Below are positions 1-64,000 of a DNA stretch of 64,000 nucleotides, in pieces. The position numbers and the translations under genes are program-made. Source of the stretch: Trichoplax sp. H2. Its lineage: Eukaryota. How positions within the stretch are numbered: position 1 is the first letter of the stretch; each line of letters begins with the position of its first letter. Location of the stretch: NCBI GenBank assembly GCA_003344405.1, contig NOWV01000014.1, forward strand, positions 806,001 to 870,000, read 5' to 3'. The notes below the pieces were generated by a model, which worked only from the letters and a program-made list of their open reading frames with translations, was not told the DNA's origin and did no database searches.

Positions 1-3000
1 TGTGTTCAGGTTCACAATTACATTGATAAGTTGTGGGTGATTTTGTAGTACATGTGCCTCTTGGACATGGAGATGAGTAACATGGATCATCTAGAATCGA
101 AGGTTGTGGCGGAGTACAGACTCCGTCAATTAATTGTAGCATTAGCCTTAGTAATTAGTAATTAAGATTATATTAATTGTTAATAACATTTATTTATTGG
201 GTATGGGATAATTGTAACATTATTAGTAGTCTAGTTATACTTGTTGTAGACTCTGTGCAGAGTAGTGTATTTACAGAAATGATAACTAATAGTAATTTCT
301 GTTGCTTTGTGCTGAGCCTTTGATTGTTAATTGGCTCTTAATTAGTTCATAACTCATTAGTGTTGTTTACGCCGTCTGCCATACTAAACCATATAGACAG
401 TCGGCTATACAAAAGCTGTATACTTTTAGAGTTGTTTACCTAAGCTGTGCACCGAGTGCAACCGGGCTAGGGTATATAAAGCCCAGCGCTCTCACTAGCA
501 GTACAGTTGTCGATTGACCGTGTAGTTAGAGTAGTCTTGGATGGCAAGATTACCTTGTTTAAATAAACTATTTTAAAAGCCTAAGACTAGTCTACACTTA
601 GCCCGTTAGGGCATACTTGGCTGTTATAGCCTTAGTATTCGTACAGCTTCAAAGGCCCAGGTTTCCTTGTCGTGGGCTGATCACGACAAAGGTGCATTGG
701 AGTGATTAATTTGTAATTTTGTTTAAGGTAATAAATAAATCAATCTAAATCAACGCAACATACCGGCACATTGAATTCCGACCAGACTAAAGTAGTCGCA
801 AGATGGAGAGATCTTTGTATTTAGTTTACAGTCTAAGATGGAAGTTTCATTTCCGGAGCATAGAATACCAGCTGTAAATGAAAATGTGATAGCATATACC
901 GACGATAAGATGGCTTGAAATTACAACTAAGATAATCTAGCCGTAGTAGTAGATTTTACTTGACATCTAAATTAGTTCCGATGATGTTGTGATCTACATC
1001 TACTGTATAAATATTTTTGTGAAAGAATTTATTGCTACCATTTCCTTTCTAACAACGTTCAATTACTTCTCTTATTCTCGAAACATCGCTCGTGTTCATT
1101 TTACAGCTAATAATTTCATGATAGAATGATTACTATATCTTTCATTATTACTACGCTATTGCTTTGAGATAGGAAATTGTTTTACTAATTCTAGCAAACA
1201 GAATAAATTTGATCGGATCCATAGAAGCGAGATATTACAGGTCATGAAATGTATAGCACAGGTAGTAAAAGTCTTTCCTATTGATTCTAATATAGTATGT
1301 TAAGTAAATATACTATAAATTATGATCTTATGATGGCAATTTTATTATAAAAACGTTGGCGAAATTTATCCCATCTTAAAACATTAATAAATTGCTAATT
1401 CATAAAATAGCTAAATAAAAGAATATACTTGCATCTCTAACTTACAATAGAATATTTTTCCTGTGACATGACCATAGAAGCTCCTCTGGTAGCGATTTGC
1501 CATATAAGGATAATTTAGCTTCGAACAAATAAGCGAAGCAGCCGCGTTATTGAAGGTATTTTGATCACAGACACTGCCCCAAGTTCCATTGTGATATATT
1601 TGCAGCGTTCCTGCCATTACATTATTGCCTTGAGAAGATGTAAGCCTAACATCGCCTTCAGTCGCTCCTAAGTAAGCATAATGCTAGCTATTATTATACG
1701 CGTAAGTGCGCTCACGATACTTTATCGCAATGTTCTAATTATGATGCTAACTAGCGTATAATATATGGCTACTACGAATAATTTCAAGTTCTTTTACAGT
1801 TCTAACTAACTTTCTGTACAAAATCTTCCATGAAATCCTTGAGGACAATAGCAACTATATCCGTAAGGATGATCCAAACATGTGGCAGAATTACCACAAG
1901 GGTTATTATTGCATTCAATTTCTGTAATTTAAAAAGCAATGACATGTAATTATCGGTTATATTATAAACATTGAAGTCTATAGTGGCTTAGAAAATTTAA
2001 TGTTTACAATGCAATATTATGCAATCTTCTTATCACAACGTTAATTAATCACGATCATCAGCACCTACTTATATAAGAACTAAGATTTGAGATCTACAGT
2101 AAAAATACTAAATTTATGCATCTGCAACTTTTTAGCGGATATCAATCTAAAATTAATTGATATATTTACGAATAATGAATTGAGTAGTCTCTAAATAAAA
2201 TATCTTTAGAGGTTATTTTCATGCCAAACTACTGTACTTCAAAAAAGCTTAGCAGGTTTTATTACAGTGAAGAAAGATAGTGTGATCGCGATAGGATCTT
2301 ATAATTACTTAAATAAAGTTTCATACTATTTTTTAGAAATATTTTCAAATGGATAGCAATCAACTCCCCAAATTTTATAATTGAAATTAATACACGTGAC
2401 CAGCAATACTGCATAGTATATTGTTGTTCTGCAGCTATTTTTTATTGGCTCATCCTAATATATCATAAATTTAAATAATTTATATTTAAAAAGAAGCTTA
2501 CTTGATGAACAATCTTGGCCGGTGTAGCCAACGATGCAGACACAAGAATAAACGTTTATGTCGCCATTTACTAAAGTGCACTTTCCCCTTGAACTACAAG
2601 GGTTGTTTGAGCAAGCATCCGCTGTTATAAGAAATATAGAAGAAATTAGGATGTAAGCTGTATAATAAACTGTACTATCCAGTGAAGATTAGCAAATGGG
2701 AAATACAAGAGTAGTGCAGTGAAATGGACTTGTAATTTATTAATAATTAGATGACCAGTATGGCATAGCTAATATAGTCGGGATAATTTAGAATTACAGA
2801 GTACAGTTATTATATTGTATAAACTCCAGTATTATGTAAAAGTGATTATTCACGATTGATTTTATAGAATATAAAATTGGTATCGTAGAAATAGAGTTTA
2901 TTTCAGGGCTATTAAAATTCTATTCTTATTTAATTCTGTAAATATTAGAAAATGCTGTAAGCTTTAGTAAGGTCACGTATCCTAGTAGATTCAGATTTTA

Positions 3001-6000
3001 TTATAAATTAAGATATGATGATCTATTTAAAATATGATTAGGGTTGTAGAAGCATTTCTCATTGGATTTAGATTCGGCTTAACTGATACAAAGATTTCTT
3101 TACAAGGATAGTATAAAAGATACTGTTGCTTACAATACAATATAGTAAAATTTTTGGTAAAACCTTTACTTTCTATATTTGGATTATTGGTCGCTAATAA
3201 TTACTAATAGGTGTAGAAAACATTACTGAATTTCAGATATGAGACTGTGAATATTGGTAAGTACGGTAGTTTCAAATTCTTTTTAAGCTCTTCTTACAAA
3301 TATATCAAATTACAAGCCGGAATATAAAATTAATATATGAGTGGAAATGTTATAAATCAAATTTGCTGTTTTAATAAGCTGCTGTATCTGTATACTTGCT
3401 TTATAAATGAGATTCATTATTTAATGAGGCAGTGTACCTGTACATTCGAGTCCGACAACGTCATTGGATCTGCACTTAATGTTATCAAATGATTTAATAT
3501 TACAATTTGCCAGTCTTGCTTCACTTCCATTGCAGGTTACACTGTTTAGCCAATAGCTTCCAAAATATCTCCCATCCCATCGTCTCTGTTTTAATCCCAA
3601 AAATCCTAATTGCCTACAGGCAACCTGGGCTTCTCTGTAGGTGAATTCATAATTGCATACAGCTCTCCATTTATTCTTGTGAAAAATTTCTAAGATGCGT
3701 GTTTTGCGTGAGTAATTCACCAAGCGTAAGGCCAAATCGCTTACTAACAATTAACAGAAGATAATTAATAAGTGCCTGTAAGCATCTACCATCTAAATGT
3801 ATAACAAATTTCTCTATAATATATTAGGATATTTATATATAAATATTTATTTACTTGTGCATAAAATTCTTCGTAACGTATATGTATGGTACCGGTAGAT
3901 ATTATCTACGTTAGAAGATGATACAAGGCATTCTATTATAACATACCAGATACACAATGTTTCCCGGTGTACGGTGATTTACATCGACAAATATAGTTTG
4001 TAGAGTCTGCCAAACAAGTTCCTCCATTTTGACAGGGAGATCGTTGGCATAGCTTTGCTAGAATTTTGTTGTACGAGTGCAATAATTAGAGTTATACAGA
4101 TTTAGTAAATAGAAATACTCCAGAAGTGTATAGCAATGCTAATGTGATAACCTCATATATTAAAAAATTGAGGATGCTGTCATTCCTAACAATCATTAAC
4201 TATAGTGTCATTTGTCACCGATCTCCTTAATTCTCCATTACTTACTGCTGCATAATATGCTGACATCATTGGCATGAGAACAATCAGATTTCTCAATATT
4301 AACCGGTTGGATATTGCAAATTCTAACATTCGGCTCATTGCCACTGCAGTTAGTTGACAAAACGACAGTGTTACTGCCTTTACCAAAATATGCATCGGGC
4401 ATAAACTTAGAAAATGTAAGATTTAATTGACGGCAGAGAACCATCCCATCGTTAACAGTTATTAATTTACTACATAATGTTCCCCATTGCTTGTTATGAT
4501 AAATTTCTACTCGGCCTTCGGTAGTATTAGCGCCATTGAGAAGACGAATATCCCCTTGTATTGCCGGTCCTTCAAGTTTAGTAGAATCATAATCGAAACA
4601 TATTAATCAAAGAAGTTCAGAATAATTCAAAATTTGATGAAACTTTTTGTCCATATTCTGGATCTAACCTATGTAGTTTTCACAAAGTATCCCAGAGTAA
4701 AATGGGGTGCATATGCATTTGTATCCATAAAACATATTTTTGCATGTTCCACCATTGCTGCACGTTATTTCAGAACAAGGATTTAGTACTACAATAGATT
4801 AAATGAAATTAAAAAGGCTTGATTTTAATTTTAAATTGATTATTTGTTAAAGTATACCTAGTCTAGTATTGTATTGATAGAATAAGAGATACAAGTTACC
4901 ATTAGCCGGTATTAGAAATATACTATTATCCTTTCAGCTTTAACACAAACTTACATTGATTGCATATAATAGCAACATCATTGCTATGATCACAAACAGA
5001 CTCAGCACTACTTGAATCATATTGGCAAGCAGTTAACGATGGTTCATAACCAGAGCAACGAACATTAACCATGCCTATCTTTCCAGTTGCTGAGCTATGA
5101 TAGGAGCTGATGTAGTTAGCTTTGGCCCAGCCAAGTTGCTGACAAATAACGTTGGCAGCACCTTCGGAGAAATTTCTATGGCACACGGTTTGCCAGCTGC
5201 CTTGCAAAAAAATTTCAACGCGACCAAAAGACCCATCACTATCAGCTTCTGGAATGATATTAGCGTCACCATTTTTAGGTGGACCTGTAAAATTAGGTTA
5301 TTCTCAGTACGGTGATTCTAATTTGAATTAAATAAGTTAAATTTAATAACTAGACTTTATTTACTTAGTAATTTACCGTGATAATATCACGTATACAAAA
5401 ACTAGGACAATATCGTTTAATTCTAATTTTGAAAGCTTGTAGTACTTTTTATCTTTATTGATGATATCATTAGTAAATCTGAAAATTAGCCGCTCAAAAA
5501 TTACAGGTGCAATATTATTTTTATTGATTAATTATTAGTAATGTATTCGTAGGGAGTTTTTCAAACACTATTTAGTAAATAAAATGCGCTATAGCTATCT
5601 TATTCGATTTATCGCGATGAAGAAGTTCACTAGTTAATATAATGTATCATTTTGTAAATATCGTCAGCGGAATTATGCTTACTTTAAAGTTAAATTATAT
5701 TTCTTAAAATGCAGTCCCGTAAATATTCGTAATCACTAATTTTCGCCAATAACTACCGAATGATGTTTCAATAGAAATAATTTTAAATTACAGTAAAAAA
5801 AATTTGTGGTTTGTGTTCAGTAAGAGATAAAGAAATAAGTGTAATGAACATGACTAATAACCGTAAAGCTTATTTAAATAAATTACTGAATTGACAGAGT
5901 AGCTGGAATGCGACATTTAAAGCATTTCTTAAAAGATTAAATTAATTAAAACTATAGCCTTACCGTGTTCACAACGAATTCCATAGTAATTATTGAGACA

Positions 6001-9000
6001 CTGGCATTTGTAATAATTGAATAAATTGGTGCATAAGCCACCGTTCATGCAAGGTTCACTATCGCATGATGTTTTGTATTGACAGAGACGCCCATGATAG
6101 CCAGGATTACAATGACAAAATTGGGTATAGTAAGTTTTACCATCCACTTTGCTACTGTTATATCTGCATTGCCCATGAACACAGTTATTTGGCTTGCAAG
6201 GAGTGTCTGGAACGTACAAAAACGTATTTGTATTAGTTATTTCCAGATTAATATCAATAATTTTAGTGTAACTTACTAGAACAGGCAATGTTTGTGCGAC
6301 GGTAGCAATTAATCCCATTTAAGCCGTATGTAAATCTGCATTGGGAAATTTTAGTTTCATTTCCAGTACATTTCATACTGTAGACCCAAACTTTATGTAT
6401 GTTACTGCAACATTCTAATGAAAGAGATGTAACATAACCCAGTTGCCGGCAGATTACATTAGCTTCGGTAGTTGTTATTTTATCGTGGCAGAAGGCACCC
6501 CAGACTCCTTCGTGATAAACCAAGGGTGTTCCTTTCACAGTATGATTGATATTTGATGTTGCGAATAATGCTAAAGTTCCATCTGCCCTAGGAACTAATA
6601 CAGGATGATTAAAATAACGAATAGCGTGAGTTTGTTATTATTTTAAATTCATAATAGGACTTGATAAAGCTGATGTTATGCGTAAAGGAGGACTGTGTAA
6701 TGCAAGGATGGGTCGTAACTAACCAATAATGGCGATAACCTACACAAATGATTTGATGAAATACTGTATGCAATATAACTGTTATTAAAAGTTAGGTATT
6801 ATTATTAAGAATAAATAGATTTAAAAAAAATTATGCTATCCTATAATTCGCCTGAAAGAGCTTGTGATAACACTTTGTTTGATTTACGCAAATATTTTGA
6901 ATGAAAATAGGTTTCCTAATATTCAGTATTGGATGACGAAGGACATTATTACGATGATAAAGATAGTAGGAAAATATCGTTACCGTAAGAAGAACTGATG
7001 TGAATTTAAGAAATTTATTTTACATTCTACGATAAGGGATATCTACCGATAGGAGTTTGGCACTTGCTTCCAGTATAACCAGCTTTACAGTAGCACGTTG
7101 GTCTATAAAAGGCATTGGATTTACAGTATCGGTTTATTCTGCTACACAGATTTACGGCTGTATTTCCGCAATTGCTGCCACCTAAGGATGATGAATAGTG
7201 TAAGTCAATGAAAGAATAGAAATGAAAATTTTATTTTCTATTTATTAGCTATCATGTAGCACGAAATTTCTACCAATTGACAGTTAAGGAAGAATTACCA
7301 TAGCAAGAAATATATAAATCTTGCGAATGATTTTGGCAATACTGTGGCACATTATACCAACCGCCGGTATTACATCCAGTAATTTTCCATTCCGTTCCTA
7401 AACATCTAACGTTATGTAACATGACGGGACCATAGCCGAAAAATGTTGTTCTTTGGCCTTGAGCGGAATAATATCCATAAAATCCTAGTAGTAGGCAGAT
7501 TTTTTTGTAAGTTGTCGTGCTGAAACCAGAGCGGCAAAGTACTCCCCACGTGCCGTTATGGTACACTTGCACTATTCCTTTACGTTCACTAGTACCAGCT
7601 AGTCGTAGATCTCCGTTCTTTGCAGTATTACCTAAATTGCATAATAGGGATGAAATGGGAGTATTAACTATTAAATTCGTGTTATCAAAATACTATCTTG
7701 CTTCTTACCTGAACAAGATAGAGTTAAGTCAAAAGAATGTCCACATCTGTCACGTCCATGTACTGCCAGAACTCGGTACGCGCAATCTTTAACTGAATTT
7801 TCATTACCTTTACAATTAAGTTGATACGAGGCAGCATTTGAGGCACTTTGACCAAATACAGGTGTGGGAAATGCATTTGCGAAAGTGTAACCCAATTGTT
7901 TACAAATAACTCTCATATCATTTAGAGATGTTTTGCGAAGGCACACGGCGGCCCAGTTATTATGTAAATAAATTTCCACGCGCCCGCTTAATGGATTAGT
8001 GCCGTTGACCAGACGCACTGAACCAAGTATTGGACCTTGAAATTTTAGAATGTTAAATTCTATTAGTAGTAAGCCTATTACGTTCTGGTCTAGTAAAAAT
8101 ATGTATTAGCATTAAACATTAACATTGAAGTTGTTTAATATCTTTGTTTACGGCAGGATTATGTGACTGTTGAAGGAATATTTGACTGCTTTGGCTTAGA
8201 GGGTGAGAGTTTTTGCCAAAATCGTTTGAATGATAATGTACTGCACTGTATATCGTAACTTTAATAACAAGTATTGTTTGTAGCTCCTTTATTTACTGTC
8301 ATGGTGAGCTGTTACAGTTTGAAAAAAAACCTACTCGATGAAAGTTGACAGTTTTTGCCCTTAAACTGGTTTGTACATTTGCAATAATATCCGTAAAATC
8401 TAGGTAAACATGTACCACCGTTAGTACACGGATTTGAAGAGCACGGCTTTATTGCTAGAGAAATTGATAAATAGCAAATGCTTGTAATTAATCATAAAAG
8501 TTTTTTTTGAATAAACATTAACTGATCGTAGATCTACTTTTTCTAATTAAATTGAGAATTGATAAATACTTGAACAGTAGACTCCGGCAAAATTGTGGAA
8601 GCAATATGAACTTCTAGACGGATCACTTCCAGGACAATCGAATATAGATGACTCGTAACCTGTACATTTCATATTTATCATTCCAGATGATGTAGGTGGT
8701 ATTCCAAACGCTGTACCTGTAGTAAAACTTGTAGCACCTGCAAAGCCAGCTTGCTGGCACACTACATGAGCATCTAATAATGAAAAATAGGTAGAGCAGA
8801 TAGGTCTCCACAGACCATTATAAAAATATTGAGGGCGTCCAACATTAATATCATTTGGTTTTCCTTCGACTATGACTAAGGTGCCGTTTAGTATTGGTCC
8901 TACAGTAAGTAAACGCATAAAGGTTACTGTAAGTTTTATTGGCAAACATTACAGTTCGTAATCGTAGAATGGCATATTAAATAGCTTATAAAGTGTTGAT

Positions 9001-12000
9001 TACAGCATGCATATATACATTTATAAGAGTATTTAAATTTCTATGAGTGTAAAAGCCTTCACTTTACCCTTTTCGCATGTTTTTCCCAGATAGCTCGAGG
9101 TACATTTACACGAAAACGATATTGAATCCAAAAGCGAACAAATACCTCGATTTTGACACGGATTTGGGTTACAGAAATTCTTATACTGACAATAGTCGCC
9201 GTAAAAGCCCTCTATACATTGACATTGGATAGCAATCGCGCTAATCCCAGCGACAGAGGTTTGATTTAGAGAACAATTACCGTTATTAAGACATGGATTT
9301 GGCTGACAACTGGCATCTAACAATTCAATTAATGGAAAAATAAAGTTGAGCTGAATACGATTAAAATGCTACTTTAGCAATTGCATTATATAATTTTTAA
9401 TCAGACTTACTGATACATTCAACTTTATAACGACTACAAATAGCAGCGTCCGTTTTATATCGATATAAGCAATCTGTTATCTTAGATTCATTGCCAAAGC
9501 AACGCATTGAGCTAACCCAAACTTTCAGTGACGGTATTCTACGGTCACAGCAATAAGATCTTCTATAACCAATAGTATAACCCAACTGCTTACAAGCAAT
9601 TACAGCGATTCTTTCGCTATATTGGTAACAAACTGCTCCCCAAGCGCCATTATGAAAAATTTCGATTGCTCCTTTCGCCGTATTAATTTGAGAGGCTTTA
9701 GAAACATTATACCAATCATATACACGAATTGAACTTTCCAGAGGTTGAGTGACTGTCGAGAATAGTTCGATATTGTGGTTATTTTCGTTTTTTATGTATT
9801 TATAGCGCTTTACTAGATTATAATATATACGGATTCCAAGATAAAGTCATATATACTTAAGAAAGTAATTTCTGTGCAAAATGTAAGTTCTGTTTTAACC
9901 TATAAATAGCTTACTGATTGGAATTGTACAATTTTCGCCTGTGTAGCCATATCTACATACACATTGACCAGCAGAAGGCAACCCTTGCGAACGGCGACAA
10001 ATTTTGTTTTCAACGGCACAAAGTGCACTCTTGTCCGCACTACAAGAAAGTGCAGCTGTATAGGAATGAATTTTTTGTTTTGAGTAATTATTGCATTAGT
10101 AGTTAGGTTAATTAGCCAATCGATAATGGCGATATAAAGTTCATTAGACTAAGCTAATAATAGTAAAACCATATGACAGGTATAGCCACTCTTGTTGACA
10201 AATACACAGTAGACAATAATATTATACGACAGTATACCGGTATTACCTATTACTATGAATGTAGTAGAATGAGAATTCTCACTTTTATACAATGTTACTA
10301 TAAGTATATACCTAAACTGAAATTATATCTAATAATAACTGTCGTGTTGCTAAAAAAGTATTGGCTTTAAATTTTGATTTTGAGGAATTTACAGTTTTCG
10401 CCATTAGTTTGACACAAATCTCCAATCTAACCGTTTATATGCCTGTTACCGTCCAAGTACGAAATCCAGTCAATTCGCGAAATGCCTAGTCAATTCGCCT
10501 AGTCAGTTCGCGAAATGCCTAGTCAATTTGCGAAATGCCCAAATATATTTCTTTGCTGATTGCGTCAATTCGCTTGCGAAATTTGTAGCTTTTGAACAAA
10601 TTTACGACATTCTAGCAGTATCTAGCTCATAACAATAGCACATAGCACCTAACAACGGGGAAAGACCGGGTACTGCCGGGAATGAACAGTAACTTCGGTC
10701 AATCCCGGGATTGGCCGGTTATTCCTGGAAATTCCCGGCCTATCTCAGGAATGAAAAACATGCCCATTCCAGTATAATGTATTGAAAGTCAAACCACTAT
10801 CGTCACGGAAAGGTCTGTAAACTTCCCTTACAATAGATTAATCTGTTGCGAGCTATTAAAGTCTATATACTTACGTCTACATCTGACAAAGATTAAGTCA
10901 TCATTGGGACATTCAAGAGAATGGTTGCCGATATTGGCGTAATTGCACATCAGAATTGATGATTCACGACCACTACATAGTATGTGATCTATTAAAGGAC
11001 TGGTTTCTGCTGCTTTCGATTTATACTTGTGATACATGTTTACACCAAAGTAGCCTAACTGTCTACAAATGACATTAGAAACAAAGAGGTTGTAATAGTG
11101 TTGCAATTGCAGACAAATTCCTCCCCAAACACCATGGTAATAAACTTGAGCTAATCCGGAACCAGCTCTATCCGAGTCAATCAGGCGCACGTCTCCGTTT
11201 TGCTCAGGTCCTATAATAAATTTCGTACGCCTTTGCTTTTAGTATCTTGCGAAGTTTGCGATAGTAATCGATTGTAAGATATACGAAGGTTTCTGACTTC
11301 AATTTTGTTAGTTTCAGCTGTCGGAGTATTAGTACTTCGTGAGCTACTTCACGACAGCCTAGATAACGCCCTACATTAACTGCTATACTCAATATAAATT
11401 GGAATCTCTAATACTGAATACGTTTTCTACTGAAGTCTTAGTATAATTTTCGGAAATGGCGCCTATTTCCGCTCATGCCTGTTCATTGAAATATTTATCA
11501 CAATTACGAAAAACTTACCCTATTGCAAAGTTAAGTGTAAACTACAGAGGTAGTAGTCTGGCGGAAGCTGTTATTCATTTCAGAATATCAAGCAACCAAG
11601 TAAAGTAAAACTAAGCAATTTATTTGTTAAGTACGTACTATACTATAGTGCAACAAACTGGCATAAAATAAGACTAATTGTAGCCAATGTAGCCTAAATT
11701 GATTAGGTACTATACGGAACAATATGCTATATTAATACTACTTATACAACATTGTAGCCATTGAGCATCTTAACGTTAATAAGGAAGTGCGCTATTAATT
11801 GCAATGCACCATGCAAGCCTCAGCTAAAGCTTGTCGAATGAATATAGCAATAAAATATTGGAAAAAGTTTGAACGCACTTATTTGACATCGATTTCCTTG
11901 AAAAGGAAACAAGCACTGGCAAAAGAAACCATTTTCCTTAGCTTTACAGATTCCACGATTCATACATGGATTTCCATTACAAGGTGAATCTATTCGATAT

Positions 12001-19167: not shown

Positions 19168-19390
19168 TGCACCAATCCCGCTGTGTGCACCAATTCCGCA
19201 GTGTGTATCATGCCCGTTATTCTTCATAATAAAATGTGTAATGTGTAGTAAAATGGCCTAATCATAACATAATGTTATAAAATCTTAGTCAGTAAGCATA
19301 ATGCCTAGTCATTTTGGATAATATTTGTATTTTAATGACAGTAAGCTAATCGACTTAGGGTAGAATCTAGGATAGAATCTAGGGTATAAC
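19168..19390. repeat. Short repeat relic with 18-bp and 12-bp tandem units
   Basis: TGCACCAATYCCGCWGTG x2 plus a degenerate third copy (19168-19216). TAGGRTAGAATC x2 plus a partial copy (19356-19390). Confidence 0.5.
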
Positions 19391-50800: not shown

Positions 50801-52777
50801 TATTAGTACTTTTGTAATATCGTTTTTTTGGTAATTGTTTATTATTCCTAGAGTACGAAATGGGATTTTACCTGCACTTCAGCGAATCGCTGCCAGCTAT
50901 CTTACTACATGTTCCTTGACTACTACAAAACTTGACAGAATAACCCATCCCTATTTTGTAGTATTTAAATAAGAGTTATAAATGAAATATTACTTTGCTT
51001 ATAAACATACTACAATACTTCATTCATTGTTTTGTCATTTTTCTAATATACTTACTAATAGAGATTGCGGGACTATTAATCAACGTGAATGAAACATAAT
51101 GAGCGACACATCGATATTCTCCGTTGTTAGATAACATTAAATTATTGATAATCAGAACGGATCGGGCCAGTGTACGATTCGATAGTAATGTAGGCTGAGG
51201 AATAACCATAACATTGCTGCTATTTCCAATTTCAACGCCATTTTTAGACCATTTAAGTTTTGATAACGGGCGAGATACTGCTTGACACGTCATTAAAACG
51301 GAAACACCTTATACATAGGTCGAGGTATTGCTCTGAACCAAAACTTCTTTCACAGACAATCCTTGAAAGGTTGTGATAAAACGATTACTACTTTGAAAAA
51401 GTTAATATAATTGAAATCATAACAATTACAATAATTATAATAAACAATTAAGAGAAAGAATTGTAGCTATTTCAATATACAGTAAACCAATTTATGCAAT
51501 GTAATTACAGTAAATCGAAAATAGTAGTTGTAGGTTAGCTTACCTGGTAGCGAGGTTTCGCACTGAATGCCTGTGTGATATTGATCACAAATAGATTATA
51601 TAGCACACAATAATATCTCAGCAGTAAGATCAAGTCGCCAAGAAATTGATAAATAATGTAAAGAAAATTTTCTTTCAAAGAGAACTATAAGATTTTAATA
51701 AAAATTCTGAGCAAATTTTAAATGTTTGAGAAGTGAAGTGATCTTATCCTTAATTTACCCTGATCAAAGAGCAAGATAAAAAATTACATTTATAAAGAAT
51801 TAATCGATCAAGGAATACGCGTACTATGGGCGTCCTATTGTTGCAATACTATTTTACTGGTAAGACTGTGAAACTTCAAAAATGATATAGGCTACTGCAG
51901 CAGCTTATAAAATACGTTACTGTTAGATCAGACGCAGATTTATTTGAAATTTACCTGCACTGAATTTGGCTACCATTATTAATTTTTCTACAGCTTCCAT
52001 GATAGTTACAGAATGTTGATGAGCATGCCACTCCTATAAAATATTATAATTTAAAAGCTTAAATTATACATATTATCAAAGTTATATTATTGTTGTCAAT
52101 AGAAAATTTATTAATAAACTAAAGTATTGAAAAATTAAAATTTAAGAGGTACAAGATGGATGACTTGCACATTCAGTAATTTTACTTCGTAGGACTTGCA
52201 GTAAAGCTTACTTAAAGTGATTGTTGTACTCTGTATAATTGTGCCGCCATCTTTGTAATTTCCCACGCACTTATAATTTCCATTATTAACCAGTATTAAA
52301 CCCTTTAAAATTATTACTGATTGTGCATATGTACTATTAGCAGATGAAACAGAGTTCATGATATGGACGTTACTGCCATTAATTAATGGAACACTATCTT
52401 TAGTCCAAGATAGTTTGGCGAGGGGAAGCGATGTTGCTTTGCATGTCAGAGCAGCATAGATGCCATAATAATAAGTTGTAGTATTACTTTGAACTGTAAC
52501 CGTGGTTAGAGGAATATCTATCAAGAAGTCAAAAATAGCTCAAGCTTAATATCATCATAATCTAGCAAATAAAGCTGATTTGTATCTATCAAAATTAAAT
52601 AAGTCATTCATAGTAGCAAATGCTTTATGCGTATTGATAAAGCATTCAACGAGAAAAGAAAGAAAGCTGGAATGTAAATTGAGTTTATCTAACCAACCAG
52701 ATAATAAAGATAAAATCTATATTTAATTACCGGGTAGCTTTGTTTCGCAGTTGCGTCCTGTGCTATATCGATTGCAG
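47884..52777 (-). pseudogene. Gene B: 5'-truncated (Ig-EGF)4-TM-tail paralog with splice-site and cysteine lesions
   Basis: Begins with an orphan half-EGF exon at 52731-52777. Ig ~52212-52517, ~51055-51362, 50193-50496, ~49154-49456. TM 48345-48429. Tail 48106-48155 and 47884-47987 (..SYENADDCIYENPSFGTQDKDL*). Lesions: acceptor AG>AT at 51591, donor GT>TT at 50192, EGF Cys>Tyr at 50940-50942 and Cys>Arg at 48631-48633. No stops or frameshifts were seen inside the exons. Confidence 0.7.
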
Positions 52778-56827: not shown

Positions 56828-56855
56828 ATGAACGTATTATTTCTAATACGTTCAT
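56828..56855 (-). other. Perfect 12-bp stem with GAAA tetraloop in the putative 3'UTR of gene A
   Basis: Minus strand reads ATGAACGTATTA-GAAA-TAATACGTTCAT, about 70 nt after the stop codon. The stem can extend through GGGG/UUCC pairing. Confidence 0.6.
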
Positions 56856-56926
56856 CCCCTAAGAACAGATATAGATATTAAATACTGTATCACTGAGCAA
56901 TAGAAGTAAAAGTAAAAGGGATAAAA

Positions 56927-59900
56927 TCATAGATCTTTATCTTGTACGCCAAAACTCGGGTTTTCGCGAGCAGTTTTATAATCTGGATCTTCATAGGAAG
57001 GCGAATATACAAATGTAGTCTTAGTTGCAGATTTTTCTGAAACATTAATATAGGATATATTTTTAAGATCGAAATAGCGTATAAGATTATGTTGCTGTTT
57101 TGGTTTACAAGTTTGTACTACGATTTACAATCTTTCGGACTTAGCCGAATTTTTTATGGTAACTGACGTACAGTTTTACAGTAAATGTCATCTTGATGTA
57201 TGTTACACAAAGGTCAACATGCAATAAAGAATTTATTTCTCACTGTCTGATTTGTGTTAATTTTGATAAATACTAAAGCTTTTGTACAATTATTGACTAA
57301 TCGAACGTTCTATCAAAATTGGTGATGCAGTCAGTACATGAGGATAAAACTACTGATTCCAGCAAACTTTTGACATTAACCATTCACATTTTATAATGAA
57401 TAACCACTTACCCAATGGGTTTGATGTTTGCAAATTGCGGCATGGCAAGACTTTATGGTGTAATATCCTACATTTCACACGTATAAAATAGTTTTACAAT
57501 AACTTTTATGATTTTAAAAATTTTTTTCATTGAAATTGCGTATTTAAGGAAATGAATAAAGTAGAATAAAGTAGAATTCAACAAGACCGCTGTTGCATCT
57601 ATAATAAAAGACAATTATTTAATGACCTATGAATGCTATTTACCCTTTCTTCTTCAGGAATATTATTATTCCAATAAAAACTAGCGTAGCACTGATACAT
57701 CCAATAGCAATTCCAACATAGCTTCCAACTATGATTTAATGATACAGGTAAAAGTTTATTTTCAACATAATTTCATCATAGGCAATTATATGCGCTACTG
57801 CGCAAACAAAAACTCTATAATCTATTTTAGATACCGTATATTTAGGATTGGTAAAAGTTTTATTGTCTTTGTTATTGTTATTATATGAAATGTTTTAGCG
57901 TTTTATACAAAATATGCTTATAATGTTATAAATGCAGTACCATTTTGCGCTATTGAACCTTGACAGTTGTCTCCTCCAAATCCTCCTGAGCAGCTAAAAT
58001 AGAGCATTCAAGCATAGATTCTTTTAACATAAAATCATTTTTAAATTGTAATTTAGCAGTTCAATTGCACAAATTGTAGCGTAAAATGGTGTCAACAGAT
58101 ATATGATATATAAAGTATTGATGTTACTGAGAAATTTCTTTCCAATAAGTATTTTAAGAAAATTAAAGCTTGAGTCCCTCGAATACTAGATATATCTAAG
58201 ATAATGAGTAACTTTTAAAGATAGCTACTGTACTGCTAAGTAATTAGGTAGCGTAAGCTTTAGATAAGTATCCAAGTAGCCAAAATTTATTAATATTTTC
58301 GGTACCTGCAACTTGGTTTTTTATTGTTCATATTACATTGACCATTGTTACTGCAATATTGCGGTGAGCAAATGAAACCTGTAGTATGATAATTGACAAT
58401 TGTAACTGTTGTCTAATATTAATAAATAACTTTATTTCTGTTAGAAAAAGAGAAATTTATTTAGTTAACCAATATATTCCGGTTAGCATACTTATTTCGT
58501 AAAGTGTGGTTTTCAAAACTTGATTACTAGTAGGATTATGTACAAGGCATGAATAGGCACCGTTATCACCTATAGATAATGGACTAAAAACGAGATAGGA
58601 TGTAATTTTCGATTTCAAATCGCCGACAATATTAGTGATATTGGTTGTATTTCCAGGCGCAAAAGTAATATTATTTTTGATCCATGTGATGGAAGGCAGA
58701 GGGCGCCCAACTGCTTGACATTGTAATCTGGCGTAGGAGCCAACCATAAATTGACTAATGTTTGAGGAAATAGATTGAATCGCTACTGGAACAGCTAAAA
58801 TACAAATATTATATCAATACGCTATGATCATAACACCAGTAATAGGTCTGCTTGCTAAGACGGTAAGTATATATATATATACTACTAACGTGTTAGTTGG
58901 TTTTCGCAATTATTTCCAGCGTATAAAGGACCACAACTAGAATTAGAAGATTTGCATTATGAGTAAAAACTGTGCGGTTTTCAATATCCGGACGGTGGAA
59001 ATTAAATCCTGACAGTACGTAAACGTATTAGCCTGTACATTCTCATAACTCCGCTATTTAATTGCCAACGTTGATATCAATCACATAAAAGCTAAGAAAA
59101 GCTATTTCTAAAAGTGAATGTATGTGTCATACTGTAATAAAAGAAACTGGTGCTTGAAAGATTTACTAAAAATTTCGAGTAAAAATTTTAAATTCAGGGA
59201 TATTAACTGCAACCTGATGCTGCTTTGACGCTTATCATTACCTGCATACAGGACCAGAATTAGTTTGATAGCATTGGCCTTGTAAATTACAAAATGCTGG
59301 AGAACACGTAATCTCTATAATGCAGTATAAAAATAATTAATTGTGATATTAGCATTTAATCATAATTTAAACTTGATAGAATCTTCCAAATAAGATTATT
59401 TCTATAATAAACATTATGCGAAGGTATACGTAAAAATCATGTACTAGCTGTATGCTAAACCTTCTGAACTTACGAGGTATCTACGTAATATTCAATTTCA
59501 AAGAACTTACGTAGATTCACAGTAGAACTATTAATAGTAATCTTGCTAATTTCATCAATAGCCTGACAGTAGTAAGTGCCTAAATCAGTTGGAATAAGAT
59601 TTCTAATTGCTAATACCACTGACGTAACTTCATTAGAATTGGCGACTACAGGAAAGATTTTGATTCTATTTCCAGCTATAACTTGTTTGCCATTATGATA
59701 CCAATTAATCTTAGGTCTTGGTCTTGCTTTAGCTTGGCATTTTAGACCAACGTAAGATCCGATTAAATATTGGGAGACATTTGCTTGTGCCACTACCGAA
59801 TTAAGAGGAAGTTCTAAAAATGGTATCAAGATTGCCACATTAGTTGCAATTATAGCCTTAAGTATATTTGTGAATCTTAGATTGTTATGTAATATTTATT

Positions 59901-62900
59901 AGAATTATCACTAATACACATCTAAAGATAACTTTACTGTAGCGGTACCTACTACATTAATTAAAAAAAACATACTTGGTAGTGTGCTCTCGCAATGATT
60001 TCCAGTAATTCCAAAATCACAACTATTGCAGATAAGGGACAAATAGATATTAGTATGATTTTAAGCGTAAACTCTATTTACAGGCGACTGAAATAAGAAA
60101 TTTAACATAATATGCTATTAAACAGGCAACAAAATTTGCTTAAACTGCTTTCTATTTCTTGGAATCAATCAATATCAACTTTACCTGCACTGCAGTAAAT
60201 CGCTGTCAGTTACGCTGCTACATATTCCATTGCCACTGCAAAATTTAGGTGAACATGCCATTTCTTTTACATGTAGCGTATGAGCGTAGATTATAAACGA
60301 AATGTTATTTTTCTTTATTAGTCTGCAAATTCATCAATGAGTTACTCAAATTTAAATTTACTTACGAATGGAGATGGTAGGGCTCTTAACTGCTATACTT
60401 CCATTATAATTACCAAGACATGTATAATTTCCGTTGCTTTCTAACTTATTGATGGACAGTACAGATTGTGCAAGCGTGCGATTCGAAGATGACGTAGATT
60501 GAGGAATAATTACGATATTGCTGCTATTTGCTAGTGGAACTCCATTTTTAGACCATGTAAGTATTGATACTGGTCTTGATATCGCCTGGCATGTTAGTAG
60601 TACGGAAGCACCATATTCGTAATTGGAGGTATTACTTTGAACCGCTACGTTACTTAAGTAAATTTCTATTAGAAAAATCGGAAGGCAATGATTTAATTTG
60701 CTATTGATTAAAACGTATCACGAAAAAGCGCTCAATAAATTAAAAAACTCTTTATCTCAATTATGACAATGGCTGTAAATTCTTAAGAACTGAAATAATT
60801 CCAGTTGTTCTATGATGCTTAATTAAACCTTATTATTGAACTTAATTATACTAAAGCTAGTAGAGATAAGTAGGCTTATTTACCTGGTAGTTCTGACTCA
60901 CATCGAATACCGGTATGACTCTGATCACAACTAGAACATATAACATAAAATAACACGAGGCCTGTAAAATCAAATGTTATGACGCTAATAATTATGGAAA
61001 TCCAAGTTTCAGATAATGCTAGTATAAGAATATACTGGCTAAATTCTATGAATAGAAATTAGTAAACCAAAATATGAGGAACTTTAACAGATTAAGGAAT
61101 ACTGTCACACCTCTAAAATTGTTACGCTGTATGCTAACACGACTGCTAACTCTTCAACAAATCAAGAAGTTTACGAAAACAGCTCACAAGTATACTTTTT
61201 ATTAGATCTGATATAGAATTTATTCGATTTTTACCTGCATTGAGGTGTATTGCTATTACCAACATTGCTACAGCTTCCATGTTCGTTGCAAAATTCCGGC
61301 GAACATGTTAATTCTATTATATTTAGCAAAATTAAATCATATAATTTGATTTCACATTAACAGTAAAGTTAATATTTAATAATATTACAGTAGCAATAAA
61401 ATCAATATCAGATGAGTAGATATAAAATGGCATAACTACAGGACATTTTATAAATTAAGATTTGTAGTAAAATAATTGCTTAATTATAGCGATTGCAGCA
61501 CTCAGTAAAATCGTGCCACAAATTTATATAACCTACCAGGTAGCTTAGTCTCACAGTTACGTCCCGTATAGCGTTGATTGCAACTGCGTATATAAGAAGA
61601 TATAGAAATAAGTTATTTTTCGTACTAACAGTTACAAAGAAAAACAGCAAGTGCATGTCATATATAAGTAAAATATTTGGTTTACTGTAATTAGAAAGTT
61701 TGTCTAACTTATATTTCCTAATTTTATGTAAGTAATATCCTTCAACTCGTACTAGTGGTTGGAAACGTTAATGCCATAATGAAGGAAAATTTAGTTTCAT
61801 CTCAGTTATGTATTACGATATATGGCCTTAAACTTGCATCCTATGATTAAAGCTTACCTGCATGTCAATTTATCACCGTTAGAAACTGGACTGCATGCTC
61901 CATTATTGTTACAAAAGTCTGGCGAGCACCTCATTCCTATTCAAAATACCATCAAATACGCGATTTATGAAGATGATTGAGACAACTACTCGGTAGGAAA
62001 TATACTTTATCCTAGATGTCTCATTCTGCTTACTAAGTCTAAATGGAAAACTTATGATTGGCGAGCCTGCACCGTCATTCTGACTTTTGCATCTGTAGTT
62101 CCCGTTATTGTACAACTTTAACCCGGAAAATAATAGAGTAGATTGCGCAAATGTAGAATTGCCAGGTATTGTCAAATATGTGAAGTTGATGTTGATTCCA
62201 CCGATTAAATCCACAAAATCTGAAGTCCATGCAATTTCTGATATAGGGCGTGATATTGCTGTGCAAGTTAGTGCCACATATGCACCTTGCACCAAGTTAG
62301 TAGCGGTAGTGTTGCTTTGGATGGTTAGACTTTTTAAAGGAATATCTTTAGCAGAAATTTATAGGAGAATATGAGAATACAACACCAAGATAACTTTGAA
62401 TGAAACAATATAATGTTGTTGATACGGTAATAAAACTTATAATAAAGTGAGTGAAGGATTTATTTAGTTACCAAGTTACGCTAACTAGATTAATTTATTA
62501 AATCAAAGATACAAATTGCCCTTAAATTGCAATTTGAGAATCTATACCTATCTAGATAAAATACCCTATATACGAAACTGATACACAGCTTACCTGGAAG
62601 TCGAGATTCACAGTTTATTCCCGTATAGTACAGCTCGCAACTAAATTATATCATATGGGCTAGATTAGTGTATGCTGATATCCATGGAAGTTATTTTGGT
62701 AAAATATTATATTATAGTAAATAATATGATCAGCTATAGATATTACATAGATGAAAATTGTTTGTTGGTAGTAAATTAGTGTAAGAGTATAGCACTTGAT
62801 TACTAATTATGAAGAATTTTTTATGAAATTCATGTTCTACTGTTTTTACCTGCACTTTGGTAAACTACTGTCGGTATCGTTGCTACATGTCCCATGACCA

Positions 62901-63912
62901 TTACAGAATCCTTCTGAGCATATCATCTCTATAAATTTAAAAATTAAAAATTAAAATGTTTTCAGATATCAATACTGACTGTTCTGACATGCAGGTCAAT
63001 CATCAGCTTAATTATTTTTAAGCTCTTGTCAGAGAGAAAATTGCTGCAGATTGCTACCAAAGTTATTTAATTGCTATTCGTGCATTATACAATATTCTAC
63101 GTACTTGCTTGCTAAAAATTTCATTAGAATAACTTACTAATAGTGACGGCAGTACTTCGTATTATTATACCCATAGCGGTATAATTTCCAATGCATTTGT
63201 ATTCGCCGTCGTCGGCCAATTTCAAATTATTCAAAATTAATTCCGATTGCGACATTGCTAGGTGAATAAACGAGTATTGGACAATCATATTGCTGCCATC
63301 CGTTATTAGAACTCCATTTTTAGTCCAAGTGAGTTGACTTAAAGGACGAGATACCGCCTGGCATGTCAAACTAACATTTATCCCATAAATGTACGTAGCT
63401 GTATTACTTTTGACTTTAACAGCGCCTAGTGGAATATCTAAGGTAGATAAATATGTTATGAAATATGAATTATAATATTAATCCTGTAATCAGTGACTGT
63501 AGTCACACAAAATGGATGCATAAACGATAAAGAACATCAAAACATAACTTTATCTGAATTGTACCGTAAACTTAATATACTTATATTACGAACCCGGTAG
63601 TTTAGTTTCACATCGAGATCCAGTATAATAATAATCACAGCTGTTTATAATAGGAAGGCAAGTCAGCGTTACAAGTTTGCTGAATGTCAATATCTAATAA
63701 TGTATAATAATTTTCTGACAGTACTATAGTTAAAAATAATCGATTCTGTAGATTATATAGCTATCGTTCCGCAAATCAGAGATTTAGTTAAATATATCGT
63801 TGGAAACGTTGACAGTATTAAGTAATTTACCTGCACTGGATTTTGATGCTTCCACTGTTGACAGCACTACAAATTCCACCATTGTAGCAATATCCTGGCC
63901 AACAATTTAATC
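56927..63912 (-). CDS. Gene A: 3' part of an Ig/EGF-repeat type I membrane receptor (5 Ig and 7 split EGF in the window, TM, NPSF tail); continues past the right edge
   Basis: Ig ~63137-63437, ~62034-62346, 60366-60665 (missed by the ORF track), ~59511-59814, ~58492-58794. Two-exon EGFs, e.g. 63831-63912 + ~63595-63641. TM 57644-57728 (GSYVGIAIGCISATLVFIGIIIFLKKKG). Tail 57412-57467 and 56927-57036 (..YSPSYEDPDYKTARENPSFGVQDKDL*). Splice sites and cysteines were intact wherever checked. Confidence 0.9.
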
Positions 63913-64000
63913 CTATCTCAACGTAACATTGGATTTTTAGGATAAATTTTAAAATAATTACTATATATCGATAATATTACTTGTAAAAACATTTGAATTA

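What the first reader, a model, noticed from the sequence alone, without database searches (positions are those of the whole stretch)
1..64000. Tandem birth-and-death cluster of giant EGF-SRCR-Ig membrane receptors, a candidate innate-recognition or allorecognition locus
Seen: at least four same-strand paralogs plus a relic, in different states. C is intact, D is a colinear paralog, A has lost a module, B is decaying, and the 19.4-20.4 kb copy is a fragment. Established: SRCR domains (DMBT1/CD163/MARCO type) bind microbes and other ligands, and clustered diversified Ig receptors mediate allorecognition in Hydractinia (Alr). Inference: this is a lineage-specific, fast-turnover endocytic recognition-receptor family. 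I do not recognise this domain order from any named protein.
Basis: partly seen in the sequence, partly recalled or inferred. Interest (0 to 1): 0.85.

Follow-up and report, generated by a model that had tools for sequence, protein, structure and literature searches.

The report
Placozoan giant scavenger-receptor gene cluster
This stretch of Trichoplax DNA holds a row of very large, related membrane-receptor genes built from EGF, SRCR and Ig modules, one of which is shown to be expressed as a 3,165-residue protein; they look like old, conserved endocytic scavenger receptors and not like a fast-changing self-recognition locus.

Summary
The window is Trichoplax DNA: named Trichoplax proteins match most of its mapped exon stretches at 96-100%. 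Its minus strand carries only EGF, SRCR and Ig exons.

- Gene C (42758-21685) is a 53-exon, all GT-AG, 3,165-codon open frame. It encodes 28 EGF, 13 SRCR and 5 Ig domains, a TM helix and a tail ending [13 protein letters not shown]. Spliced RNA contigs from two runs confirm it.
- Gene D is colinear over 26 intact exons and runs off the window start.
- Gene A shows only its Ig-EGF-TM end in the window. That end is intact and has an EGF-EGF junction where B keeps an Ig.
- Copy B is a 5'-truncated copy of A's tail with a stop codon, a lost splice acceptor and two lost cysteines.
- Bases 19857-20360 are a dead partial copy of C's 3' end.

An endocytic scavenger receptor is the best reading, from the SRCR arrays plus NPxY/NPxF tails. 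"Fast turnover" is not supported. Synonymous sites between copies are near or at saturation and dN/dS is about 0.05-0.4. Nothing tested points to allorecognition: a second haplotype or strain differs by only about 0.8%. Placozoan SRCR-receptor expansions are already published (PMC6321704). The public gene models for this locus that turned up are fragmentary.

The parts
21685..42758 (-). Gene C: 53 exons without the unfound signal-peptide exon. Order: 7 EGF, then 13 SRCR interleaved with EGF, then 5 Ig each followed by a split EGF, then a TM helix and a 45-aa tail with LDNPVY. 3,165 codons.
   Evidence: Model: all AG/GT, one open frame. RNA joints and contig pieces. Exon-length sums of 1545, 258, 132 and 1017 nt match X10 record 7. 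Pfam.
28202..39425 (-). SRCR block of C: SRCR1-13. Five have 8 cysteines (SRCR2, 6, 9, 11, 13; SRCR11 counts a ninth from the start of the next EGF) and eight have 6. SRCR10 is split by an intron. SRCR11-EGF-SRCR12 is a single 768-nt exon.
   Evidence: The closest solved chains are CD163.
27845..28079 (-). Linker between SRCR13 and the next EGF: a 49-nt exon (28079-28031) and a 17-nt micro-exon (27861-27845).
   Evidence: One search reports joints and 15 letters between them, in both X7 and X10. Placed. Boundaries refined.
22248..27370 (-). Ig-EGF stalk of C: Ig1-5 (27370, 26382, 25072, 23765, 22888), each followed by an EGF split into two exons (73-79 nt plus 47-53 nt).
   Evidence: RNA joints 25355-27539.
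21685..22167 (-). TM exon of C (22167-22083, [24 protein letters not shown] then LRKKG), cytoplasmic exon 21928-21885, and last exon 21773-21685 (...[17 protein letters not shown], stop).
   Evidence: The RNA piece end at 21773 is inferred, table 3.
1..13980 (-). Gene D, 5' two-thirds: 6 EGF, then SRCR1-10 with interleaved EGFs. It is colinear with C and runs off the window start within an EGF exon.
   Evidence: Pfam.
56927..64000 (-). Gene A, 3' part only: 5 Ig, 7 split EGFs (two adjacent at 61936-60884 with no Ig between them), TM 57728-57644, tail ...ENPSFGVQDKDL. The SRCR part presumably lies beyond the window end.
   Evidence: Residues 1-206 of P0003 are absent from the window.
47884..52777 (-). 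Copy B: a 5'-truncated duplicate of A's tail. Order: orphan EGF 3' half (52777-52731), 4 Ig, 4 split EGFs, TM 48429-48345, tail ...YENPSFGTQDKDL. Lesions: stop at 51311-51309, acceptor lost before 51590, Cys>Tyr (exon 50950), Cys>Arg (exon about 48634).
   Evidence: It equals the Trichoplax sp. H2 model P0064, which its source names 'Down syndrome cell adhesion molecule'.
19857..20360 (-). Relic: a partial, non-coding copy of C's 3' end (TM exon plus last-exon flank).

Best explanation
The window is part of a tandem array of paralogous genes in Trichoplax. They encode giant, presumably type-I, membrane proteins of the SRCR superfamily.

The archetype is gene C. Its ectodomain has 7 N-terminal EGFs, 13 SRCR domains spaced by EGFs, and a membrane-proximal stalk of 5 Ig domains alternating with EGFs. 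One TM helix follows, then a short tail with an LDLR-like NPxY signal.

The most likely function is an endocytic scavenger or pattern-recognition receptor. The 13 non-equivalent SRCR domains would bind polyanionic, microbial or food-derived ligands. The rigid EGF/Ig spacers would hold them out from the membrane. The NPxY/NPxF tail would recruit PTB-domain clathrin adaptors for uptake.

The array arose by old segmental duplications. C and D split first; A and B split later, B being a partial copy of A's 3' end. Every domain sits on its own phase-1/phase-1 exon, or on a phase-compatible pair. Whole modules can therefore be gained or lost without breaking the frame: A lost an Ig, and C has one more EGF than D. 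The full-length copies have been held under purifying selection. B is now breaking down, and one tail fragment is dead.

Shown: the anatomy, the transcription and splicing of C, the lesions, and the age and constraint of the copies. Inferred: ligand binding, endocytosis and membrane topology.
For: Organism: P0003 (T. adhaerens TRIADDRAFT_21116) matches window exons at 99% over three of its four aligned stretches. The fourth (79%) spans an EGF that the model leaves out. P0064 (Trichoplax sp. H2) matches at 90-100% over eight exon pieces.

Domains: Pfam is above cut-off on 18 of 20 exon ORFs scanned. All own-HMM hits lie on the minus strand. EGF pattern hits are 36 minus, 0 plus.

One mRNA:
- X7 record 16 bridges SRCR13, the linker exons, an EGF and Ig1.
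- X10 record 7 (6,741 nt) runs from the EGF exons at about 41.7 kb to 28.2 kb.
- 14 of the 15 listed joints are CT..AC on the plus strand, which is GT..AG on the minus strand. The one exception spans the micro-exon.

Model: 53 exons, 3,165 codons, no internal stop, all AG/GT. Exon sums agree with the RNA contig coordinates.

Topology and tail: a 24-residue hydrophobic helix is followed by LRKKG. The tail reads ...[14 protein letters not shown] in C, ENPSFGVQDKDL in A and ENPSFGTQDKDL in B.

SRCR: the closest solved chains are CD163, PIT54, CD5L, SCARA5, CD6, MSR1, DMBT1 and MARCO. A [VIL][EQ][VIL][FYLV]x4-5W stretch is present in 10 of 13 C domains and 7 of 10 D domains. I recall this stretch as the DMBT1 bacteria-binding motif.

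Age and constraint:
- C-D amino-acid identity is 44-74% per exon, pS 0.66-0.92, and dN/dS 0.06-0.23 in the 13 of 26 exons where dS was computable.
- Pooled A-B is dN 0.20, dS 0.96.

Literature: 45 SRCR transmembrane proteins in Trichoplax sp. H2 are described as a placozoan-specific expansion of putative endocytic scavenger receptors (PMC6321704, abstract and section 7 read).
Against: - No signal-peptide exon was found for C or D, so type-I topology rests on the TM helix plus the positive-inside rule.
- There is no ligand, localisation or cell-type datum. No paper names the locus: a search for TRIADDRAFT_21116 found 0 papers.
- NPxY also serves integrin-type signalling and adhesion, so it does not prove endocytosis. 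A and B carry NPSF, not NPxY.
- Ig-EGF stalks are typical of adhesion molecules too.
- Of the first 40 listed differences between the window and contig X1, 16 fall in C's coding sequence and 12 of those are non-synonymous. That looks less constrained than the paralogue comparison suggests. The sample is small, covers 21.3-24.5 kb only, and 175 further differences were not shown.
- The supplement and Fig. 2 of PMC6321704, which may already list this architecture, could not be seen.
Confidence: 0.6

Rival explanations
1. Cell-adhesion or tissue-organising receptors. The Ig-EGF stalk and the EGF/SRCR array would mediate cell-cell or cell-matrix contacts, and NPxY would act as an integrin-like adaptor site rather than an uptake signal.
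For: Five I-set/Ig_3-type Ig domains alternate with EGFs next to the membrane. A source names the B model 'Down syndrome cell adhesion molecule'. A single Ig exon finds giant multi-Ig proteins at about 30-35% identity.
Against: - The name is automatic. No FN3 domain was found in any exon.
- Most of the ectodomain is SRCR, whose characterised relatives are ligand scavengers (PMC6321704).
- The multi-Ig hits are summed weak repeat matches, not orthologues.
Confidence: 0.15
2. Allorecognition or self/non-self determinant. Under this reading the clustered Ig-bearing paralogues are polymorphic labels that control fusion or rejection between placozoan clones.
For: - The locus is a clustered, same-strand family with module gain and loss.
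- 12 of 16 coding differences to contig X1 in the Ig4-Ig5-tail region are non-synonymous.
- RNA runs X7 and X10 share some but not all of X1's variants (table 3), so more than two haplotypes exist.
Against: - Overall divergence to X1 is only about 0.8% (84 of 10,178 and 72 of 9,821 letters).
- Paralogues are old and constrained.
- No paper read links placozoans to an allorecognition locus. A search for placozoa plus allorecognition found 22 papers, 12 listed, none on such a locus by title or abstract start, and one read in passages.
- Homology to Hydractinia Alr or Botryllus FuHC was not tested.
Confidence: 0.05
3. Shed or secreted agglutinin of the DMBT1/gp340 type. The ectodomain would be released and would aggregate microbes or food particles in the extracellular digestive space, with the TM form being only a precursor.
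For: Long SRCR arrays with spacers resemble DMBT1. The top database hits are auto-named DMBT1-like, at 28-35% identity. Placozoans digest externally (PMC12013895, abstract start seen).
Against: - The TM helix and the conserved NPxY/NPxF tails are kept in A, B and C under constraint.
- No CUB or ZP domain is present.
- No cleavage site was identified.
Confidence: 0.1
4. B is not a dying pseudogene. It would be a working Ig-only receptor, or an alternative 3' cassette of gene A, that skips its damaged exons. All of its modules are phase-compatible.
For: - A-B dN/dS is about 0.2 with dS about 0.96, so B was constrained for most of its life.
- The TM, the tail and 3 of 4 Ig exons are intact.
- The orphan EGF 3' half at 52777-52731 keeps an AG acceptor and an open frame.
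- B carries a gene model in Trichoplax sp. H2 (P0064).
Against: - An in-frame TAA sits in Ig2, one acceptor is lost, and two structural cysteines are lost.
- P0064 bridges the lesions only by reading an EGF exon in the wrong frame (mapping).
- Its start has no clear signal peptide.
Confidence: 0.25

Closest known systems
CD163 / class I scavenger receptors (SRCR-only arrays plus TM)
   Same: Long tandem arrays of SRCR domains on a single-pass membrane protein with a short tail carrying an internalisation signal. CD163 chains are the best solved matches (E 3e-145, 7 stretches).
   Different: Class I receptors contain SRCR domains only. Here 28 EGF and 5 Ig domains are interleaved, 6-Cys and 8-Cys SRCR types are mixed, and the protein is about three times longer.
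DMBT1 / gp340 (SRCR agglutinin)
   Same: Many SRCR domains separated by spacers. Database neighbours are auto-named DMBT1-like at 28-35% identity. Most domains carry a VEVxxxxxW-like stretch (the motif is recalled).
   Different: DMBT1 is secreted and has CUB and ZP domains, with SID spacers rather than EGFs. No CUB or ZP was found here, and a TM helix plus an NPxY tail is present.
Placozoan SRCR scavenger-receptor expansion (Kamm et al. 2019, PMC6321704)
   Same: Same organism group. That paper reports 45 SRCR-containing transmembrane proteins with more than 20 partner domains, 'most combinations restricted to the phylum' (section 7 read). This locus very probably belongs to that set.
   Different: The paper's text gives no locus, gene structure, paralogue states or tail motifs. 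Its Fig. 2 and Dataset S3A could not be seen.
Predicted SRCR-Ig-TM proteins of Cnidaria and Echinodermata (P0005 Dendronephthya 'DMBT1-like', P0035 Diadema 'WC1.1-like', P0049) and the SRCR-EGF-TM-NPVY protein P0042
   Same: The same overall order, SRCR array then Ig or EGF stalk then TM. P0042 also has an NPVY tail.
   Different: They lack the N-terminal EGF run, EGFs between SRCRs and the Ig/EGF alternation. Identity is 28-31% over the query exon. Orthology was not tested.
LDL-receptor family endocytic tails (FxNPxY)
   Same: C's tail reads LDNPVY, which differs in one residue from the LDLR signal FDNPVY as I recall it. It lies in a short tail close to the C-terminus.
   Different: There are no LDL-A or YWTD modules, so only the sorting signal is alike. 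A and B have NPSF instead.
Hydractinia Alr / Botryllus FuHC allorecognition loci
   Same: Clustered genes for Ig- or EGF-bearing single-pass membrane proteins in an early-branching or colonial animal (recalled).
   Different: No hypervariability was seen (about 0.8% to X1). Most of the ectodomain is SRCR. Sequence homology was not tested.

Membership tests
SRCR superfamily | At least one SRCR domain (Pfam PF00530) above the gathering score | tested here: met
   PF00530 scores 50.6-161.6 bits against a cut-off of 26.1 on 8 of the 8 SRCR exon ORFs scanned in C and D. Own HMM finds 13 in C and 10 in the in-window part of D.
Class I scavenger receptors (CD163/CD5/CD6 type) | Ectodomain made of SRCR domains only | tested here: not met
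   EGF and Ig exons are spliced into the same mRNA as the SRCR exons.
DMBT1/gp340 | CUB and zona pellucida domains C-terminal to the SRCR array; secreted | tested here: not met
   No CUB or ZP hit in the 20 exon ORFs scanned. All remaining C exons are accounted for as EGF, SRCR, Ig, linker, TM or tail. A TM helix is present.
DSCAM (the name a source gives to the B model P0064) | About 10 Ig followed by FN3 domains, TM and a long cytoplasmic tail | tested here: not met
   B has 4 Ig alternating with EGFs, no FN3 and a tail of about 55 aa.
NPxY-dependent endocytic receptors (works-like test, not a homology family) | Cytoplasmic NPxY (or NPxF) motif in a short tail after a single TM helix | tested here: met
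   C has [11 protein letters not shown] has RENPSFGV. B has YENPSFGT. Function of the motif was not tested.
Type I membrane protein | N-terminal signal peptide | tested here: inconclusive
   No convincing signal-peptide exon lies upstream of 42758 or 13980. No database protein of 89-2000 aa holds C's second EGF exon. The RNA was laid only up to 41299.
Allorecognition determinants (Alr/FuHC-like) | Extreme allelic polymorphism of the ectodomain | tested here: not met
   X1 differs from the window at 84 of 10,178 and 72 of 9,821 positions. Only one alternative DNA-like haplotype was seen, so the test is weak.
Allorecognition determinants (Alr/FuHC-like) | Sequence homology to Alr1/Alr2 or FuHC | not tested
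   No Alr or FuHC sequence was fetched or compared.
Birth-and-death multigene family | Tandem paralogues including pseudogenes or fragments, no concerted homogenisation, and a range of duplicate ages including young ones | tested here: inconclusive
   The tandem paralogues, the decaying copy and the relic are present. Positional orthology shows there is no homogenisation. No young duplicate exists: pooled dS across the three A/B/C pairings is 0.96 or more, and C-D synonymous sites are saturated. Death is seen; recent birth is not.

The most novel reading that the evidence does not exclude
The membrane-proximal Ig-EGF stalk and tail of these receptors may be under diversifying selection between Trichoplax haplotypes. 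12 of 16 coding differences in that region are non-synonymous, and RNA runs carry mosaic combinations of the variants. Frame-neutral module gain and loss would add to this. Under that reading the cluster is a discrimination locus, for self versus non-self or symbiont versus food, in an animal with no known recognition receptors of that kind. B would then be an alternative 3' cassette rather than a pseudogene.
Probability: 0.07. Interest if true: 0.8.

Novelty: new member of a known kind. Interest (0 to 1): 0.4.

Why it matters
Placozoans are among the simplest animals and lack canonical Toll-like and NOD-like receptors (PMC6321704). How they tell food, symbionts and pathogens apart is therefore an open question, and their expanded scavenger receptors are prime candidates.

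This work turns a fragmentary public annotation into a transcript-backed 3,165-residue gene model with an explicit sorting signal. The public models were a 743-aa partial, exon-skipping model and an Ig-only model auto-named DSCAM. The new model gives a concrete target for localisation, ligand-binding and uptake experiments.

It also shows that the cluster is ancient and conserved domain by domain. That argues each SRCR position has its own retained specificity. Finally, the locus is a clean example of evolution by phase-1 exon modules: an Ig lost in A, an extra EGF in C, and a 5'-truncated duplicate decaying in place.

Tried and rejected
- Whole-genome search of the window's own assembly: no genome is held.
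- Earlier findings of this scan: none, by place or by words.
- Long homologues via a DNA reference spanning introns: the call errored because the translation contains 145 stops. I did not pursue it further, so annotated models longer than 2,000 aa could not be retrieved.
- Single Ig exon against 1.84 billion representatives: 3,009 hits at E<=0.001, dominated by giant multi-Ig proteins at about 30% identity. Only P0064 and a 96-aa fragment were close. This was uninformative about family distribution.
- C's second EGF exon against proteins of 89-2000 aa: nothing found.
- Signal-peptide hunt by ATG, hydrophobic core and phase-1 donor, and by C-versus-D upstream conservation: only weak, non-conserved candidates such as 45547-45484.
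- Intergenic stretches 13990-21680, 42760-47880 and 52880-56925: no ORF of 55 aa or more looks like a gene, and apart from the relic and B's orphan EGF half there are no further module remnants.
- Greedy colinear projection of C exons onto D mis-assigned exons. It was replaced by offset-bounded projection.
- Run X18 (organism C) holds 0.08 of the sampled words.
- Haplotype-duplicate artefact: rejected. Copies are only 65-73% identical at the DNA level.
- Paper searches for the locus name (0 papers) and for placozoan fiber cells plus scavenger receptors (9 papers; PMC8639732 read in passages, which reports only cd36 expression) gave no cell-type information for this gene.

Full report
**1. What the window is**

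The window is AT-rich (GC 0.29-0.36) and has the look of intron-rich eukaryotic DNA. Stop-to-stop ORFs of 100 aa or more number 40 on the minus strand and 1 on the plus strand.

A 294-aa ORF finds T. adhaerens TRIADDRAFT_21116 (P0003, 743 aa, partial) among otherwise distant hits of 23-41% identity. Residues 207-743 of P0003 map back onto four window exon stretches. Three match at 99%. The fourth matches at 79% because the model leaves out an internal EGF. Residues 1-206 are not in the window; the best match is 52%. The public model therefore skips most exons and borrows an exon from outside the window.

A Trichoplax sp. H2 protein (P0064, 652 aa, source name "Down syndrome cell adhesion molecule") maps at 90-100% onto 52874-48344. 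So the window is Trichoplax DNA. I cannot tell the H1 lineage from the H2 lineage. No whole genome is held for it, and this scan has no earlier notes on it.

**2. The domains are real and strand-specific**

Pfam gives SRCR (PF00530), EGF and Ig_3/I-set/Ig_2 above their cut-offs on 18 of 20 exon ORFs taken from all four copies. The two exceptions are 44/43-aa six-cysteine exons that reach only 17.9 and 19.1 bits against EGF_Teneurin (cut-off 24.3).

HMMs built from the window's own exons list hits on the minus strand only. A six-cysteine EGF pattern hits 36 times on the minus strand and never on the plus strand. The three intergenic stretches hold no other gene-like ORF.

**3. Gene C is one expressed gene**

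Of four public runs laid on 21300-41299, X7 (on record as an RNA library) and X10 give spliced contigs. X1 gives one unspliced, DNA-like contig pair, and X4 gives short unspliced contigs.

Of the 15 joints listed, 14 are CT..AC on the plus strand, which is GT..AG for a minus-strand gene. The one exception spans a micro-exon. A further 34 joints were not shown. X7 record 16 runs from EGF 28858-28733 through SRCR13, two linker exons and EGF 27669-27539 into Ig1 (27370-27074). X10 record 7 (6,741 nt) runs from the EGF exons near 41.7 kb down to 28202. So the SRCR block and the Ig block belong to one mRNA.

I used those joints plus the rule that introns are phase 1 to build a 53-exon model, 42758-21685. 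Every exon has AG/GT. The 9,500 nt read as 3,165 codons with a single terminal stop. The exon lengths I inferred between RNA-anchored exons add up to the contig's own coordinates (1545, 258, 132 and 1017 nt, and reasoning, table 8).

The order of modules is:
- 7 EGF.
- SRCR1-13 separated by one or two EGFs, except SRCR4-SRCR5, which are adjacent.
- A 49-nt exon and a 17-nt micro-exon as linker.
- EGF, then five Ig each followed by an EGF split over two exons.
- A TM helix ([24 protein letters not shown], then LRKKG).
- A 45-residue tail ending [17 protein letters not shown].

The totals are 28 EGF (two of them divergent), 13 SRCR and 5 Ig. Introns run from 79 to 906 nt with a median of 175.

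I could not find the first, signal-peptide exon. The RNA was laid only up to 41299.

**4. The other copies**

*D.* D (13980 to the window start) matches C exon for exon. It has 26 complete exons, 5,367 nt and 1,788 codons open, all AG/GT, at 44-74% amino-acid identity. The next EGF is cut off by the window edge. D has six N-terminal EGFs where C has seven. SRCR types are conserved by position, with 8-Cys domains at positions 2 and 6 in both. D9 has lost the CC pair that C9 keeps.

*A.* Only the 3' part of A is in the window (64000-56927). It has 22 exons and 881 codons open to the stop, with 5 Ig, 7 split EGFs, a TM helix and a tail ending ENPSFGVQDKDL.

*B.* B (52777-47884) has 4 Ig, split EGFs, a TM helix and a tail ending YENPSFGTQDKDL, but no SRCR part.

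Module-by-module identities:

| Modules compared | Identity |
|---|---|
| C5 / A5 / B4 | 59-70% |
| C4 / A4 / B3 | 38-61% |
| A3 / B2 | 59% |

The flanking EGFs group the same way. A and B are closer to each other than either is to C.

B begins with an orphan EGF 3' half (52777-52731) that is 80% identical to the 3' half of A's EGF "Ab". Then come Ig B1, an "Ac"-like EGF, and B2 (the counterpart of A3). In A, Ab and Ac lie back to back (61936-60884) with 223 nt between them. B therefore keeps an Ig that A lacks. The repeat units are similar to one another, so I rate this alignment as moderately secure.

B's lesions are explicit:
- TAT>TAA in Ig2 at 51311-51309.
- The acceptor of the Ac-like 3' half changed from ctag to ctat.
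- Cys>Tyr in the next EGF.
- Cys>Arg in the last EGF.

The H2 model P0064 gets across this region only by reading an EGF exon in another frame.

*Relic.* Bases 19857-20360 are colinear with C's 21610-22227. The TM exon is 70% identical and the flank of the last exon 76%. The "TM" segment now reads ITVRIKYAVANLIIVVPRLFLRKK.

**5. Age and selection**

DNA identity between copies is 65-73% over the longer stretches that blastn aligns. They are not assembly haplotypes.

| Comparison | pS | dN | dS | dN/dS |
|---|---|---|---|---|
| C vs D, per exon | 0.66-0.92 (saturated) | 0.18-0.53 | computable in 13 of 26 exons | 0.06-0.23 |
| A vs B, pooled membrane-proximal unit | 0.54 | 0.20 | 0.96 | about 0.2 (per module 0.05-0.28) |
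| A vs C, pooled | 0.68 | 0.32 | 1.75 | per module 0.11-0.39 |
| B vs C, pooled | 0.70 | 0.31 | 2.03 | per module 0.09-0.16 |

All duplications are therefore old, and the coding parts have been constrained. That includes B for most of its history. This contradicts "fast turnover". The family shows death but no recent birth.

One result points the other way. Of the first 40 listed differences between the window and the X1 contig (21353-24492), 16 lie in C's coding sequence, and exons make up 36% of that stretch. Of those 16, 12 change the amino acid. The sample is small and 175 further differences were not displayed. Overall X1 differs at 84 of 10,178 and 72 of 9,821 positions. That is an ordinary level and not what a hypervariable recognition gene would show.

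**6. What it most likely does**

SRCR arrays on single-pass proteins are the hallmark of scavenger and pattern-recognition receptors. The nearest solved chains are CD163, PIT54, CD5L, SCARA5, CD6, MSR1, DMBT1 and MARCO.

The tails carry NPxY in C and NPxF in A and B. C's LDNPVY is one residue away from the LDL-receptor signal as I recall it. The basic residues after the helix put the tail in the cytoplasm.

I therefore read these as endocytic scavenger receptors. Thirteen positionally conserved, mutually diverged SRCR domains offer many binding surfaces. EGF and Ig modules act as spacers. This is inference. No ligand, location or cell type is known. No paper names the locus, and the fiber-cell paper reports only cd36 (passages). 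Adhesion, shedding as an agglutinin, and allorecognition remain as rivals, in that order of likelihood.

**7. Comparison and novelty**

Kamm et al. 2019 (PMC6321704; abstract, section 7 and passages read) report 45 SRCR transmembrane proteins in Trichoplax sp. H2, with many phylum-restricted domain combinations, as a placozoan-specific expansion of putative endocytic scavenger receptors. This locus almost certainly belongs to that set. Their Fig. 2 and Dataset S3A, which I could not see, may already show the architecture.

Neubauer et al. 2016 (PMC5119243, passages) describe cnidarian SRCR proteins that have Ig domains together with a trypsin domain.

In my own comparison:

| Protein | Source | Layout |
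|---|---|---|
| P0005 | soft coral | SRCR12-Ig2-TM |
| P0035 | sea urchin | SRCR6-Ig4-TM |
| P0049 | unnamed record | SRCR7-Ig-TM |
| P0042 | unnamed record | SRCR12-EGF5-TM with an NPVY tail |

The general layout is therefore not unique. The regular EGF interleaving, the Ig/EGF alternation and the size were seen only here.

The locus does not fit class I scavenger receptors because it has extra domains. It does not fit DMBT1 because it has no CUB or ZP and does have a TM helix. It does not fit DSCAM because it has no FN3.

I rate it a new member of a known kind. The useful by-products are a transcript-backed gene model about four times longer than the public model, and a clear picture of module-level evolution.

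Noticed in passing
window 27845-28079: A 17-nt micro-exon and a 49-nt exon form the linker between SRCR13 and the next EGF. Both RNA runs carry the micro-exon's letters between two joints.
   Followed up: yes
P0003 residues 1-206 (outside the window): The public T. adhaerens model TRIADDRAFT_21116 starts with an SRCR-SRCR stretch that is not in the window (best match 52%). It then skips all EGF exons and most SRCR exons of gene C. The model looks chimeric, and the cluster continues beyond the window end.
   Followed up: partly
window 3438-3743 versus 32156-32470: SRCR9 has 8 cysteines in C (YYCC) but 6 in D (RRWD). One disulfide was lost in one paralogue while every other SRCR position keeps its type.
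   Followed up: partly
window 52695-52874: The first exon of the Trichoplax sp. H2 model P0064, which includes its start codon, overlaps B's orphan EGF 3'-half exon (52777-52731) in a different reading frame. The annotated start of B is therefore doubtful.
   Followed up: partly
window 37626-37738 and 37751-37867: A direct repeat of about 115 nt, 76% identical, lies in the stretch between C's SRCR2 and EGF-EGF exons; its second copy reaches about the last base of the intron next to the SRCR2 exon's 3' end.
   Followed up: no
window 21353-24492 (table 3): RNA runs X7 and X10 share some but not all of the variants of the DNA-like contig X1. For example, 21726-21755 appear in X10 only and 22592/22598 in X7 only. 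At least three haplotype combinations of C's 3' part therefore exist among public runs.
   Followed up: partly
P0042 (unnamed record): A 1,875-aa protein from an unnamed source has 12 SRCR, 5 EGF, a TM helix and a tail containing NPVY. It is the closest outside parallel to the SRCR-EGF-TM-NPxY logic seen here.
   Followed up: no
window 40705-40818: C has one more N-terminal EGF exon than D (7 versus 6). The extra exon sits next to C's longest intron (906 nt).
   Followed up: partly
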